Source: Escherichia coli O127:H6 str. E2348/69 (GTDB lineage: Bacteria > Pseudomonadota > Gammaproteobacteria > Enterobacterales > Enterobacteriaceae). From it: DNA of 64,000 nt. Positions 42,901 to 48,900 of the stretch are shown piece by piece (the stretch's first letter is position 1; each line of letters starts with the position of its first letter). The stretch lies in NCBI RefSeq assembly GCF_000026545.1, contig NC_011601.1, one strand, 5' to 3'. The position numbers were made by a program.

Positions 42901-45900
42901 TTGCTTTTTGCCGTCAGCACCCGGCAATCTTCCTCATTGCGTGATGCCTTCCAGCTTAATTTCTTTATTTGCAATAGTTGCAGCTCATATCCGGGCTGAC
43001 TCCAGACTAGTAGTGAAATGCGCAATTTTGTAGAATTGCGCCTCCTCGCGACCTCCCCAGTGAATCTGTTGCCTCATTTTTTACATACTGCGTATTCGAC
43101 TTCTCCACCTGTTGCGCAAGAGAAACTGGGTTTATTCATTTTTGCGAGGCCGACTTCTTTCTGGACAGGACTTTATGCAGCACAACACACTACCGAAACA
43201 CGATCAGAAATTGCCGTTTACACGCTACGACTTCGGCTGGGTTTTATTATGCATAGGCATGGCGATTGGTGCCGGAACCGTGCTGATGCCAGTACAAATT
43301 GGATTGAAGGGAATTTGGGTATTTATTACCGCAGCGATCATTGCTTATCCTGCCACCTGGGTAGTACAGGACATTTATTTAAAAACCCTTTCTGAAAGCG
43401 ATTCCTGTAATGACTACACCGATATTATCAGTCATTACCTGGGGAAGAACTGGGGAATTTTCCTCGGGGTTATCTACTTTTTGATGATTATCCACGGGAT
43501 TTTTATCTACTCTCTCTCCGTGGTTTTCGACAGCGCCTCGTACCTGAAAACCTTCGGTTTAACCGATGCCGATCTTTCTCAATCTCTATTTTATAAAGTC
43601 GCCATTTTCGCCGTACTGGTGGCGATTGCGTCTGGTGGTGAACGATTACTGTTTAAGATTTCCGGGCCAATGGTGGTGGTCAAAGTGGGGATTATTGTCG
43701 TGTTCGGTTTTGCGATGATCCCGCACTGGAATTTCGCCAATATAACCGCCTTCCCGCAAGCCTCCGACTTTTTCCGCGATGTCCTGCTTACTATTCCATT
43801 TTGCTTCTTTTCCGCAGTATTTATTCAGGTACTTAACCCAATGAATATTGCCTATCGTAAACGGGAAGCGGATAAAGTACTGGCAACCCGGCTCGCGCTG
43901 CGTACCCACCGGATTAGCTATATCACGCTCATTGCGGTGATCTTGTTTTTTGCCTTTTCGTTTACCTTCTCAATTAGCCACGAAGAAGCCGTTTCTGCCT
44001 TTGAACAAAATATCTCGGCACTGGCACTGGCCGCGCAGGTGATCCCTGGGCATATCATTCATATCACCTCTACGGTGCTGAATATCTTTGCCGTACTGAC
44101 TGCATTCTTTGGCATTTATCTCGGTTTCCACGAGGCCATTAAAGGCATTATTCTCAATCTGTTAAGCCGAATTATTGATACCAGGAAAATTAACTCACGC
44201 ATGCTGACTCTGGCGATCTGCGCTTTTATCGTCATTACGTTGACGATTTGGGTTTCGTTTCGTGTATCGGTGCTGGTGTTCTTTCAGTTGGGAAGCCCGT
44301 TATATGGCATTGTGTCGTGCCTCATTCCATTTTTCCTGATCTCTAAAGTTTCACAACTGAAAAAACTACGCGGGCTAAAAACATGGCTTATCCTGTTTTA
44401 TGGTATTTTGCTGTGCTTTTCGCCGCTATTGAAGCTGATTGAATAAAAGTAACGGGGGCTGCTCACAGCAGCCCCAGACGATGTCGATAGCATTGCAGCA
44501 CAGCCTGGATATGATCCTGAGTCATAAAGGACTGCTCATACGTTTCCATAACAATGGCATTTTCTTTACGTATATCCTGAAAGAGTTTTTCCAGCAATCT
44601 GGGCGCTAACCCCATTGATTCACCCAACAGCAAAAAGTCCTGCCCGATATACTCGCCATAATCACTGTGAAATCCAGGAGCCAGTTCCCGACCGCCTTCT
44701 TCTCGCGTCAATAACGGCAGCGCCAGATAGTTTGAGTAAAAATATTCCGGATAGGGAGCGACAGAAACAAAGTCATACACCGGCGCTAACGCAGGCGTCA
44801 AACCATCGGAGTACACTAAGCCAAAGTTTCGTAAATGCATGTCGTTATTACCCAGCAACCAGGCGTAAACAATGCGACGAAAGAGATCGATTTTAAATGC
44901 GATGTTGTCGTTAACATGGGCAACTAAAAATCGGGCCAGCGTTTCATAGCTGACATATTGTTCGTTATCATTCCCCGTTTTGCCATATTTATCTGTAATC
45001 TGCATCGCGCCATCAAGCTGTTCCTGATGCACTGGCAGCCCCTTGTTATCCCGGTCATAGCGCCGGATAACAAATGCGTATTCAAGCTCTTCCTCTGATT
45101 GTGGTGCAAAACTCAACAGGCCATGCACAGGTACGTCAAATCCCAAACGAGACATCAATGTCATTGTTGCGTGTTCATTTTCGGCCAAACCGGGAAAGTC
45201 GGCTGGAGAGGGCTTAAGGATAAAATTTCCCTGATGATCTACGACGCGGAACTCTCCTTCATCCAGCACTAATTGCAATTTGGGCTGGTAACCGGAAATA
45301 CTCATCCCTTTTTGTTGACGCGGAAGTTCCTGCACAAACTGAGTTCGCGTAAACCCCAGCCGAGGATTCAATTTTGCAGTGCCGCTCAGTCGCTTCAACC
45401 CCTGTGTCGAATATCCGCGCTGTTCGTCACGTTCATTCAACGGCGTTAACAGAATACGACAATTCGCCATTATTCCTCCCAAGGTAAAATCTGGATGGCC
45501 CCCAGCAGATTCTTGCCGTTATCAATAAGCATTCCCAGCAGATCGTTTTCGTCACGATGCTGTATCTGGCTGTAGCGTTGACGCAGCCATCCTTCTGGCG
45601 CCAGTGAGGCGAAATAAGGATGCAACGTCTCACTGGGAAACTGACGCTGTGCGACGGGCAGACTGATTGAGATTGCCGGTCCGTGGTAATCGTGGGCGTA
45701 CTGGAACAAAAAACCACTGTCGTTCTGAGAGAGTTCACCCACTACCTGACCATAGAGCAACACTTTCACTCGCCGATGCATAGTTTCACTCCAAGAACAT
45801 TCGCCACCGCGAACACACTGCCGAATTTAACCTGTTCAGGATCCTTAAAAAGTCGCTTTAACGTGGACGTTGAGATCCCCGTTTGTAGTTCAAGTGTGTA

Positions 45901-48900
45901 TAAATCAATGCCCAATTCTTTGCGACGTGCGTTCAGTTGTTCCCCCAAATGACGGGGAGTCTCAATGGTCAGGAGGGGGCGTGGTTGACTAATATTCGGC
46001 CCCTGAATAAGTTTCTTCTGCAACTCCTGGAGTTGGTCGCCGATCGCTTTCAACTCTTGAGCCAGATTTTGTGGTCCTGAGCAGATCATTAAAGAACCTT
46101 TCGATTGATAAAAGACAAAAACAAGATCATTTATGGTCAGATAAATTCGTTAAGTATCACAAATGAACCATTTTTCATTAATGGTTATAATTTAGCTCAT
46201 ATATAACTCATTGGCAAAGAAAAAGGTCAAAAAAGATACATAAATGATAGATAAAGCATAAAAAGGTCATATTTGACATGAGATCAGCATGAAAGCTGAT
46301 CTCATCGGGAGAGTTAAACAGCTGGCTTCTGCGGATTTTCATCCTGATCAACGGCAAAACAAGCTACCAGTTGACCGCCGTAGTCTTTTAGCTGCGGCTG
46401 CAACTGGGTGCAGGGGCCGAAGCGTCGACGACAGCGGGCGTTGAAGGCGCAGCCTGGCGGTGGATTCAGCGGGCTTGGCAGTTCACCGGTAAGTTTGATG
46501 CGTTCGCGACGATCGTCCGGGTTCAGGCGTGGTGTCGCGGAGAGCAGCGCCTGAGTGTACGGGTGGCGCGGGTTATTGAAGATTTGGTCCTTCGTCCCCT
46601 TCTCCACGCAGCGGCCCAGGTACATCACCATCACTTCATCAGCAATGTGCTCCACCACCGACAGATCGTGGGAGATAAAGACATAAGATAGCCCCAGTTC
46701 CTGCTGCAAATCCATCATCAGATTCAGCACCTGCGCACGCACTGAGACGTCCAGCGCGGAAACCGGCTCATCGGCAATCACCACATCCGGGTCGAGCATC
46801 AGACCTCGGGCAATGGCGATACGCTGACGCTGACCGCCGGAGAACATATGCGGATAGCGGTCATAATGCTCGGTTTTCAGGCCGACTTTCGCCATCATCG
46901 ACAGAGCTTTTTCCCGACGCTGTACTTTGCTTAAGCTGGTGTTGATCAGCAGCGGCTCTTCGAGAATCTGCCCAACTTTTTTACGCGGATTCAGCGAACC
47001 GTAAGGGTTCTGGAAGACAATCTGGATTTTCTGCCGACGTAGCTTCTGCGCTTGCGGATCGTGCTTAAGCAGATCCTGCCCCTGGTAATACAGTTCGCCG
47101 CCGGTGGGCGTTTCAATCATCGTCAGCAACCGACCGAGGGTCGATTTACCGCAGCCAGATTCACCTACTACTGCCAGCGTTTTGCCACGTTCAAGGTTAA
47201 ACGAAACGCCATCCAGCGCCTTCACCAGACGTTCCGGCGCGAACATGCCTTTCTTCACCGGATAATGTTTTTTCAGGTCGATAGCCTGCAACAGCGGTTG
47301 TTGCGAGGTGGCCTCATGCGTACTCATAGTGTCGGCCTCCCGGCATCATCAAGTGGGTAATGGCATTTGGACTGACGCCCGTCAGCGAGCATATTCAGCG
47401 CCGGTTCTTCAGCACGGCATTTATCAGTGGCGTAGGGGCAGCGCGGGTTAAGCAGGCAGCCGTTCGGGCGGTCGTACTTGCCGGGAACGACACCTGGCAA
47501 CGACGCCAGACGTTCTTTGTCCTGAGCAAATTCCGGCAGCGCACGCAGCAATGCCTGAGTATACGGGTGACGCGGCGCATGGAAGATAGCGTGCGCATCG
47601 CCCGTTTCTACTACCTGGCCTGCATACATCACGATAATTTTATGTGCCGCTTCCGCCACCAGCGCCAGGTCATGAGTGATCAACACCAGCGCCATGTTCT
47701 CTTTCTGCTGTAGCTCCAGCAGCAGTTCGATAATTTGCGCCTGAATGGTCACGTCCAGCGCAGTGGTCGGTTCATCGGCAATCAGCAGTTTTGGCCGACA
47801 GGCAATCGCCATGGCGATCATCACGCGCTGGCTCATGCCGCCGGAAAGCTGATGCGGGTAAACATCCAGACGCGATGCCGGATCGGGAATACCGACCAGA
47901 TTCAGCAGGTCAATCGCTCGCTGACGGCGGGTACTTTTGTTGCCGCCCTGATGCACCTTAATCGCTTCCATAATCTGGAAACCCACGGTGTAGCACGGGT
48001 TAAGGCTGGTCATCGGGTCCTGGAAGATCATTGCCACTTCGGCACCCACCAGGTTGCGGCGCTCTTTTTCTGAGATACGCTGCAAATCCTGACCGTTAAA
48101 CTCCAGCTTTTCCGCCATTACGCGGCCCGGATAATCAATCAGCCCCATAATTGCCAGCGAACTGACCGATTTACCAGAGCCGGACTCACCCACAATCCCG
48201 ACCACTTCGCCCTGTTTTACGCTGTAGCTGATGCGATCTACGGCGCGGAACGGTGCGCTTTCGTCGCCGAAATGCACCGATAATTTATCTACATTTAATA
48301 ACGCCATCTCGAACCTCTTACTGCTTCAGTTTGGGATCGAGCGCGTCACGCAGACCGTCACCCATCAGGTTAAATGCCAGCACCGTCAGCAGGATCGCCA
48401 GACCCGGGAAGGTCACGACCCACCAGGCGCTTTGCGCGAACTGCAACACATCAGAGAGCATGGTGCCCCACTCCGGCGTTGGCGGCTGCGCGCCCATGCC
48501 GAGGAAACCAAGAGCAGCCATATCGAGAATGGCGTTAGAGAAACCGAGCGACGCCTGAACAATCAGCGGCGCAAGGCAGTTCGGGAAGATGTTAATAAAC
48601 ATCTGGCGCATTGCCCCGGCACCCGCCACGCGAGACGCGGTGACGTAATCGCGGTTAACTTCCACCAGCACGGCGGCGCGGGTTAAGCGCACATAATGCG
48701 GCAGCGCAACGAAGGTTAGCGCCAGCGCGGCGTTACCAATCGACGGGCCGAAAATCGCCACCAGCACCAGTGCCAGCAGTAGACTTGGCAGCGCCAGCAT
48801 GATATCGACCACGCGCATGATGATGTTATCGACCAGACCGCCAAAGTAACCGGCGATCAGGCCGAGAATAACGCCCATAATCAGCGATAACACCACTACC

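What the first reader, a model, noticed from the sequence alone, without database searches (positions are those of the whole stretch)
44463..46089. Three-gene split-HipA kinase toxin-antitoxin operon (hipB-hipS-hipT) inserted between yhjV and dppF
Three tightly coupled minus-strand genes: an XRE-type HTH protein (107 aa), a 103-aa protein resembling the N-terminal subdomain of HipA, and a 335-aa protein corresponding to the HipA kinase core with that subdomain missing. The hipS stop and hipT start share a nucleotide (TAATG) and hipB overlaps hipS by 16 nt, so translation is probably coupled. The kinase keeps HipA-type catalytic motifs (DMHLRNFG, DFVSVAPY) and a Gly-rich loop carrying two serines (S57, S59). 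This is the HipBST architecture, in which the kinase HipT is neutralised by the small HipS protein rather than by HipB, and which I recall being characterised in enteropathogenic E. coli O127:H6 with tryptophanyl-tRNA synthetase as the target. K-12 has yhjV directly next to dppF.
Basis: partly seen in the sequence, partly recalled or inferred. Interest (0 to 1): 0.9.

Follow-up and report, generated by a model that had tools for sequence, protein, structure and literature searches.

The report
Known HipBST toxin-antitoxin operon of EPEC

Summary
Three minus-strand genes encode proteins of 107, 103 and 335 aa at 44463-46089, with a 16-nt hipB/hipS overlap and a shared-base TAATG hipS/hipT junction. 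The motifs sit where stated: DMHLRNFG at D210, DFVSVAPY at D233, and S57/S59 in GMSISGYQPK.

The DNA is 100% identical to the chromosome of E. coli O127:H6 strain E2348/69. HipB and HipS are residue-for-residue identical to the chains of PDB 7AB3, and HipT differs from its chain only at position 57 (Ala there, Ser here). This is the model HipBST system:
- Vang Nielsen et al. [quoted passage not shown]
- Baerentsen et al. 2023 (PMC10627512) showed that HipS Trp65 blocks the Gly-rich loop and that HipB represses the promoter.

I add only minor descriptive points:
- The module is an about 1.88-kb segment (44449-46328) that replaces the 29-nt yhjV-dppF spacer of K-12 and O157.
- It rewrites the DppF C-terminus and travels with a divergent 120-nt yhjV tail.
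- It occurs in 160 of 5,426 complete E. coli genomes, single-copy and chromosomal, and beside dppF in every record listed.

Novelty: already known. Interest: low.

The parts
45766..46089 (-). hipB: 107-aa XRE/Cro-type HTH protein. It is the transcriptional repressor of the operon and augments HipS, but is not the antitoxin.
   Evidence: ORF. Identical to 7AB3 chain A. Pfam HTH_3 2.2e-5 over residues 54-103. TIGR03070 couple_hipB scores 29.9 bits, below its cut-off. Repressor role published in PMC10627512.
45470..45781 (-). hipS: 103-aa homologue of HipA N-subdomain 1. It is the antitoxin. E63 and W65 are present.
   Evidence: ORF. Identical to 7AB3 chain B. Couple_hipA 2.6e-22 and TIGR03071 1.4e-17. 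Weak alignment to residues 9-108 of K-12 HipA. W65 and E63 confirmed. W65A abolishes neutralisation (PMC10627512).
44463..45470 (-). hipT: 335-aa HipA-type Ser/Thr kinase core and the toxin. Gly-rich loop with S57/S59, catalytic D210, Mg-binding D233.
   Evidence: ORF. Identical to 7AB3 chain C except position 57, Ala there and Ser here; the paper names the AIS variant HipT S57A. HipA_C 3.8e-38 over residues 56-300. Residues checked. TrpS S197 phosphorylation and toxicity published in PMC6581861.
46090..46313 (-). AT-rich (29.5% GC) hipB-upstream regulatory region. It holds the HipB-repressed promoter. Candidate -35/-10 is TTGCCA (from 46217) ... TAAATT (to 46189). Several short inverted and direct repeats are present. 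Operators are not mapped.
   Evidence: GC content. The consensus scan gave one minus-strand site here, but the number of hits in the region is not above the shuffle expectation. Repeats. Activity of the native promoter region and its repression by HipB were shown by a lacZYA fusion in PMC10627512. The exact promoter and operator positions are my inference only.
44455..44475 (-). 9-bp G+C-rich hairpin that encloses the hipT stop codon. Probable operon terminator, with a weak T-run.
   Evidence: Terminator-like scan and sequence. Function inferred, not shown.
46278..46305 (-). Perfect 11-bp inverted repeat (ATGAGATCAGC / GCTGATCTCAT) just downstream of the dppF stop. Probable replacement terminator for the dpp operon, carried on the inserted segment.
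   Evidence: Inverted repeat I5. The K-12 spacer hairpin CCGGAGCGCATGGCCCCGG is absent here. Function inferred.
44329..44448 (+). Divergent 3' tail of yhjV. It marks the left end of the imported tract and changes seven residues of the YhjV C-terminus.
   Evidence: 82% identity to K-12 over the last 122 nt, against 98% over the first 1150 nt. The tail is at least 95% identical in exactly 160 records and 80-90% identical in 5,261 others, with none between.
46314..46328 (-). Rewritten 3' end of dppF. The protein ends ...ENPQKPAV* here (337 aa) against ...ENPQR* in K-12 (334 aa). This is the right junction of the inserted segment.
   Evidence: Alignments. ORF lengths.

Best explanation
This is the hipBST tripartite type II toxin-antitoxin operon of enteropathogenic E. 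coli O127:H6 E2348/69.

Shown in the literature for these exact sequences:
- HipT (335 aa) is a HipA-family Ser/Thr kinase that lacks N-subdomain 1.
- When free, it phosphorylates tryptophanyl-tRNA synthetase TrpS at Ser197 in the KMSKS loop. Its induction arrests growth reversibly and raises (p)ppGpp.
- HipS (103 aa), the detached homologue of HipA N-subdomain 1, is the antitoxin. It binds HipT and inserts Trp65 into a pocket formed by the outward Gly-rich loop.
- HipB (107 aa) dimerises through its HTH domain and bridges two HipS-HipT pairs into a heterohexamer. It represses the hipBST promoter and only augments neutralisation.
- HipT autophosphorylates at Ser57 or Ser59. A phosphomimetic at Ser57 makes HipT refractory to HipS.

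Proposed by the authors rather than shown: that Trp65 holds the kinase in an inactive conformation by blocking the loop's inward transition, that growth arrest follows from uncharged tRNA-Trp and stalled translation, and that (p)ppGpp rises through RelA.

Inferred only: translational coupling through the 16-nt and 1-nt overlaps, the positions of the promoter, operators and terminator, and the natural trigger and physiological role.

The module sits on an about 1.88-kb segment that replaces the yhjV-dppF spacer. It was most likely acquired by homologous recombination together with a divergent yhjV tail.
For: Identity:
- 100% nucleotide identity over 2,101 nt to the E2348/69 chromosome NZ_CP059840.2.
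- HipB and HipS are identical to 7AB3 chains A and B. HipT is identical to chain C except position 57, Ala there and Ser here.
- RefSeq annotates the same three CDS.

Domains and residues:
- HipA_C, Couple_hipA and HTH_3.
- S57, S59, D210 and D233 in HipT, and E63 and W65 in HipS, are all present.

Experiments on this strain's genes:
- PMC6581861: toxicity, rescue by HipS and not by HipB, trpS multicopy suppression, in vitro phosphorylation of TrpS S197, autophosphorylation at S57/S59, (p)ppGpp.
- PMC10627512: structures, the W65A mutant, HipB repression of the native promoter, serine variants.
- PMC8262856 places HipT O127 in Hip-kinase clade III, which consists solely of hipBST operons.

Context:
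- Empty sites in K-12 and O157.
- 160 of 5,426 genomes carry the module.
- The divergent yhjV tail occurs at high identity in the same number of records.
Against: Nothing contradicts the identification. Limits:
- The functional data come from ectopic expression in K-12 MG1655 and from in vitro assays. They do not come from the native locus in E2348/69.
- No physiological trigger, persistence phenotype or other natural role is established in the papers read.
- NCBIfam has no HipT-specific model. The only hit is a sub-threshold match to the YjjJ equivalog (23.9 bits against a cut-off of 401).
- HipB is below the TIGR03070 cut-off.
- The promoter-like site is not statistically distinguishable from chance.
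Confidence: 0.98

Rival explanations
1. A decayed canonical hipBA module, in which a full-length hipA was split by a frameshift or nonsense mutation into two non-functional fragments (a pseudogene).
For: HipS plus HipT together are collinear with HipA. HipS aligns to HipA residues 9-108. HipT aligns to residues 163-360 of S. oneidensis HipA.
Against: Both ORFs are intact, each has its own Shine-Dalgarno sequence, and the stop/start overlap is tidy. All 160 genomes hold the full-length segment at 98.5-100% identity, and in every record listed all three genes are annotated. The split architecture defines a whole clade (PMC8262856). Both proteins are expressed, fold, form a complex and are functional.
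Confidence: 0.01
2. A classical two-component logic in which HipB is the antitoxin, as in K-12 HipBA, and the 103-aa protein is only an accessory.
For: HipB is the first gene and carries an HTH domain, as in hipBA.
Against: Induction of hipB alone does not rescue HipT toxicity, whereas hipS alone does (PMC6581861). HipB of HipBST lacks the C-terminal residue implicated in HipA inhibition (PMC10627512).
Confidence: 0.01
3. The natural role of the module is anti-phage abortive infection or genomic-segment stabilisation, rather than persistence or stress tolerance. This concerns purpose, not biochemistry, and is compatible with the best explanation.
For: Patchy distribution, with 160 of 5,426 genomes carrying it. 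It was imported on a small foreign segment of lower GC, 46.2% against 50.3% for the window. HipT gives weak hits to a PADLOC candidate defence family, PDC-M03A, at 1.6e-6 over a short region.
Against: The PADLOC hits are weak and partial, and HipS and HipB have none. No phage or mobile-element genes flank the module within the segment. None of the papers read reports a defence phenotype.
Confidence: 0.1

Closest known systems
HipBST of E. coli O127:H6 E2348/69 (PDB 7AB3, 7AB4, 7AB5; Vang Nielsen et al. 2019 mBio; Baerentsen et al. 2023 eLife)
   Same: Everything. The DNA is identical. HipB and HipS are identical to the crystallised chains, and HipT differs only at position 57 of the crystallised variant. 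Lengths and overlaps are as published.
   Different: Nothing in the genes. The papers read do not mention the yhjV-dppF context, the junctions or the prevalence (one search found no mention of yhjV or dppF in the 2019 paper).
HipBA of E. coli K-12 (HipA kinase targeting GltX; PDB 3DNT, 2WIU, 3TPD)
   Same: Same kinase fold and motifs: HipA_C domain, Gly-rich loop with a phospho-serine, and catalytic and Mg-binding Asp residues. An HTH HipB autoregulates. The target is the KMSKS-type loop of an aminoacyl-tRNA synthetase, and the stringent response is induced.
   Different: In HipBA, N-subdomain 1 is fused to the kinase and HipB is the antitoxin. The target is GltX S239 and phosphorylation requires tRNA. 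Ser150 autophosphorylation inactivates HipA. Here the subdomain is a separate protein that acts as antitoxin, the target is TrpS S197 without a tRNA requirement, and phosphorylation does not inactivate the kinase. Direct sequence similarity is low: K-12 HipA does not appear among the HipT hits at E<=0.001.
HipBST of Legionella pneumophila (Lpg2368-2370; PDB 7VKB, 8EZR, 7WCF) and HipS of Haemophilus influenzae (HI_0666; PDB 7CZO)
   Same: Same tripartite architecture, with HipS as the antitoxin. HipT(Lp) matches at E 5e-26, HipS(Lp) at 4e-11 and HI_0666 at 3e-28.
   Different: These are distant orthologues. The Legionella kinase has a single phosphorylatable serine (the S-psi-Q type) and differs in the loops proposed to engage the target, so it may have another target (PMC10627512 Discussion).

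Membership tests
HipBST tripartite toxin-antitoxin family (Hip kinase clade III) | Three-gene operon in the order hipB (HTH), hipS (about 100 aa), hipT (about 335 aa), tightly linked on one strand | tested here: met
   107, 103 and 335 aa on the minus strand, with 16-nt and 1-nt overlaps.
HipBST tripartite toxin-antitoxin family (Hip kinase clade III) | HipT is a HipA_C kinase core lacking N-subdomain 1, with the Gly-rich loop, catalytic motif and Mg-binding motif intact | tested here: met
   HipA_C 3.8e-38 over residues 56-300. Aligns to residues 163-360 of S. oneidensis HipA. S57, S59, D210 and D233 are present.
HipBST tripartite toxin-antitoxin family (Hip kinase clade III) | HipS is homologous to HipA N-subdomain 1 (Couple_hipA) | tested here: met
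   PF13657 2.6e-22. TIGR03071 63.7 bits against a cut-off of 27.8. Aligns to HipA residues 9-108. Trp65 is present.
HipBST tripartite toxin-antitoxin family (Hip kinase clade III) | HipB carries an XRE/Cro-type HTH domain | tested here: met
   HTH_3 2.2e-5 and HTH_26 2.7e-4. TIGR03070 is sub-threshold. Identical to 7AB3 chain A, named 'XRE family' by the depositors.
HipBST tripartite toxin-antitoxin family (Hip kinase clade III) | Sequence identity to the experimentally characterised type member | tested here: met
   100% DNA identity to E2348/69. Proteins equal the 7AB3 chains, apart from position 57 of HipT.
HipBST tripartite toxin-antitoxin family (Hip kinase clade III) | HipT toxicity is neutralised by HipS and not by HipB; TrpS is phosphorylated at S197 | not testable with these tools
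   Published for these exact sequences in PMC6581861. Not reproduced here.
HipBST tripartite toxin-antitoxin family (Hip kinase clade III) | HipB represses the operon's own promoter | not testable with these tools
   Published lacZYA fusion in PMC10627512. Here there is only an AT-rich upstream region with a promoter-like site that is not above chance.
Canonical HipBA (two-component) | Single HipA polypeptide of about 440 aa with N-subdomain 1 fused to the kinase core | tested here: not met
   The subdomain and the core are separate ORFs with their own start codons and Shine-Dalgarno sequences.

The most novel reading that the evidence does not exclude
The genes themselves hold nothing new. 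The most novel reading left open concerns the locus. hipBST entered E. coli as part of a foreign haplotype by homologous recombination. That haplotype has a donor-type yhjV tail, a rewritten DppF C-terminus and replaced terminators. The module may have an unrecognised natural role in these lineages, for example phage defence or an effect on dpp or yhjV expression, and its HipB operators in the 224-nt AT-rich leader remain unmapped.
Probability: 0.12. Interest if true: 0.3.

Novelty: already known. Interest (0 to 1): 0.07.

Why it matters
HipBST matters as a textbook exception among type II toxin-antitoxin systems. A kinase toxin is neutralised by its own detached N-terminal subdomain, and the target has switched from GltX to TrpS. 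All of that is published for this exact locus, so its recognition here mainly validates the scan's reading ability.

The incremental value is descriptive:
- exact insertion junctions;
- collateral changes to YhjV and DppF;
- a two-haplotype structure at the locus;
- a prevalence of about 3% among complete E. coli genomes.

Tried and rejected
- NCBIfam gave no HipT-specific model. The only hit was a sub-threshold YjjJ match, and TIGR03070 for HipB was below its cut-off. This reflects a gap in the library and is not evidence against the identification.
- PADLOC gave only weak partial hits of HipT to the candidate family PDC-M03A, and none for HipS or HipB. That is not enough to call this a defence system.
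- The promoter and terminator scan found numbers of sites no higher than in shuffled sequence. The promoter and terminator assignments therefore stay as inferences.
- The repeat search in the leader found many short imperfect repeats but no obvious operator palindrome of the K-12 HipB type. I did not try to define operators.
I made the comparison with DNA alignment instead.
- I deliberately did not spend the large shared-database searches (homologous proteins, representatives, metagenome or genome contigs, structure prediction). Identity to a crystallised, published system made them unnecessary.
- I considered and rejected the pseudogenised-hipA reading and the HipB-as-antitoxin reading (see rival explanations).
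Full report
**Observation**

The stated coordinates hold three minus-strand ORFs:
- hipB, 45766-46089, 107 aa
- hipS, 45470-45781, 103 aa
- hipT, 44463-45470, 335 aa from the ATG at 45470

The mechanical ORF list runs hipT back to a TTG at 45482 (339 aa). 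RefSeq, the papers and the crystallised chain all begin at MANCRIL.

hipB and hipS overlap by 16 nt. The hipS TAA and the hipT ATG share one base (GGAATAATGGCG). GGGAGGA and GGAG Shine-Dalgarno-like sequences precede hipT and hipS.

- DMHLRNFG begins at D210.
- DFVSVAPY begins at D233.
- S57 and S59 lie in GMSISGYQPK.
- HipS carries E63 and W65.

**Identity**

A 2,101-nt query spanning the locus is 100% identical to the chromosome of E. coli strain E2348/69, NZ_CP059840.2. The same three CDS are annotated there between yhjV and dppF.

HipB and HipS are residue-for-residue identical to chains A and B of PDB 7AB3. HipT is identical to chain C except at position 57, which is Ala there and Ser in the window. 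The paper describes a HipT S57A (AIS) crystal variant. 7AB4 and 7AB5 are the companion entries.

Domain searches agree:
- HipA_C, 3.8e-38, on HipT
- Couple_hipA, 2.6e-22, and TIGR03071, 1.4e-17, on HipS
- HTH_3, 2.2e-5, on HipB

HipS aligns weakly to residues 9-108 of K-12 HipA. HipT aligns to residues 163-360 of Shewanella HipA. This is the split-HipA picture.

**What is known about it**

Vang Nielsen et al. 2019 (PMC6581861) chose this very module as their model. They report:
- the same three lengths and the same 16-nt and 1-nt overlaps;
- growth arrest on hipT induction, rescued by hipS alone but not by hipB alone;
- a ternary complex;
- trpS, not gltX, as multicopy suppressor;
- in vitro phosphorylation of TrpS at S197;
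- autophosphorylation at S57 or S59;
- (p)ppGpp accumulation.

Baerentsen et al. 2023 (PMC10627512) solved the heterohexamer. They showed that HipS Trp65 sits in a pocket made by the outward Gly-rich loop, and that W65A abolishes neutralisation. HipB is necessary and sufficient to repress the native promoter. S57D makes HipT refractory to HipS, and S57A or S59A reduce toxicity without abolishing autophosphorylation.

Gerdes et al. 2021 (PMC8262856) place HipT O127 in Hip-kinase clade III, which is made up solely of hipBST operons.

**Mechanism: shown and inferred**

Shown in the literature, for these sequences:
- kinase toxicity;
- TrpS S197 as the target;
- HipS as antitoxin, acting through Trp65;
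- HipB as repressor and bridge of the complex;
- the dual autophosphorylation sites.

Proposed by the authors rather than shown: that Trp65 sterically blocks the loop's transition to the inward, ATP-binding state, and that (p)ppGpp rises through RelA on uncharged tRNA-Trp.

Inferred only:
- translational coupling from the overlaps;
- the promoter position, with candidate TTGCCA at 46217 to TAAATT at 46189, which is not above chance;
- the operators, since repeats exist in the leader but none is compelling;
- the terminator hairpin at 44455-44475, which encloses the hipT stop.

The natural trigger and physiological role remain open in the papers read.

**Context (my additions)**

The K-12-type locus (MC4100) and O157 EDL933 have yhjV and dppF tail to tail, 29 nt apart, with a shared hairpin between them.

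In the window, homology to these empty sites stops just after the yhjV stop, at about 44448. It resumes at about 46329, inside the last codons of dppF. A segment of about 1.88 kb replaces the spacer. DppF now ends ...ENPQKPAV (337 aa) instead of ...ENPQR (334 aa).

The segment is 46.2% GC against 50.3% for the window. The hipB leader is 29.5% GC. A perfect 11-bp inverted repeat at 46278-46305 follows the new dppF stop.

The last 122 nt of yhjV are only 82% identical to K-12, against 98% for the first 1150 nt. K-12 and O157 are 98.4% identical to each other over that tail.

Across 5,426 complete E. coli genomes:
- The inserted segment is present in exactly 160. It is single-copy, chromosomal and 98.5-100% identical in all of them, and lies beside dppF in every record listed.
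- The divergent yhjV tail is at least 95% identical in exactly 160 records and 80-90% identical in 5,261, with none between.

The counts coincide, but I did not check the two sets member by member.

The simplest reading is two haplotypes at this locus. The module would have been imported by homologous recombination from a donor that already carried hipBST downstream of yhjV. No integrase, att site or flanking direct repeat was seen.

**Rivals**

- A pseudogenised hipA is excluded. The ORFs are intact, the full segment is conserved in all 160 carriers, and a functional complex has been published.
- HipB as the antitoxin is excluded by experiment.
- A phage-defence role is not excluded. It has only weak support: patchy distribution, and weak PADLOC hits of HipT to candidate family PDC-M03A, with none for HipS or HipB.

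**Verdict**

Novelty is 'already known'. The locus is the type example of its family, so interest for discovery purposes is low.

Noticed in passing
window 42109-42216 and 42592-42699 (minus strand); 42265-42330 and 42748-42813 (plus strand): There are two tandem Ldr-family type I toxin genes, each paired with an rdlD antitoxin sRNA (Rfam RF01813, 90.4 and 82.9 bits). K-12/MC4100 and O157 EDL933 have a single ldrD at this bcsG-yhjV locus. Three toxin-antitoxin loci therefore lie within about 4 kb in this strain.
   Followed up: partly
window 41427-41885 (minus strand) and 41895-42018 (minus strand): An IS200C transposase gene and its adjacent STnc490 Hfq-binding RNA (RF01405, 142 bits) are inserted between bcsG and ldrD. 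They are absent from the K-12 and O157 loci.
   Followed up: partly
window 44329-44446 (plus strand): The last 122 nt of yhjV are 82% identical to K-12, against 98% for the rest of the gene, and seven C-terminal residues change. Across E. coli the tail is bimodal: at least 95% identity in 160 records and 80-90% in 5,261, with none between. The count of 160 matches the number of hipBST carriers.
   Followed up: yes
window 46314-46328 (minus strand): The DppF C-terminus is rewritten by the right junction of the insert...ENPQKPAV* (337 aa) against ...ENPQR* (334 aa) in K-12 and O157. The functional consequence is unknown.
   Followed up: partly
window 46090-46313: The hipB leader is 224 nt at 29.5% GC. 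It contains the direct repeat AAAAAGGTCA twice, 40 nt apart, and ATCATTTATG / CATAAATGAT 103 nt apart. These could be HipB operators, but the papers read do not map the operators.
   Followed up: no
PMC8262856, Table 1 as extracted: In the extracted text of the 2021 phylogeny paper's table, the accession and length entries for the three characterised HipT proteins seem shifted by a row: 342 aa is listed beside E. coli O127 and 335 aa beside T. auensis. HipT O127 is 335 aa in the window and in the 2019 paper. This may be a text-extraction artefact.
   Followed up: no
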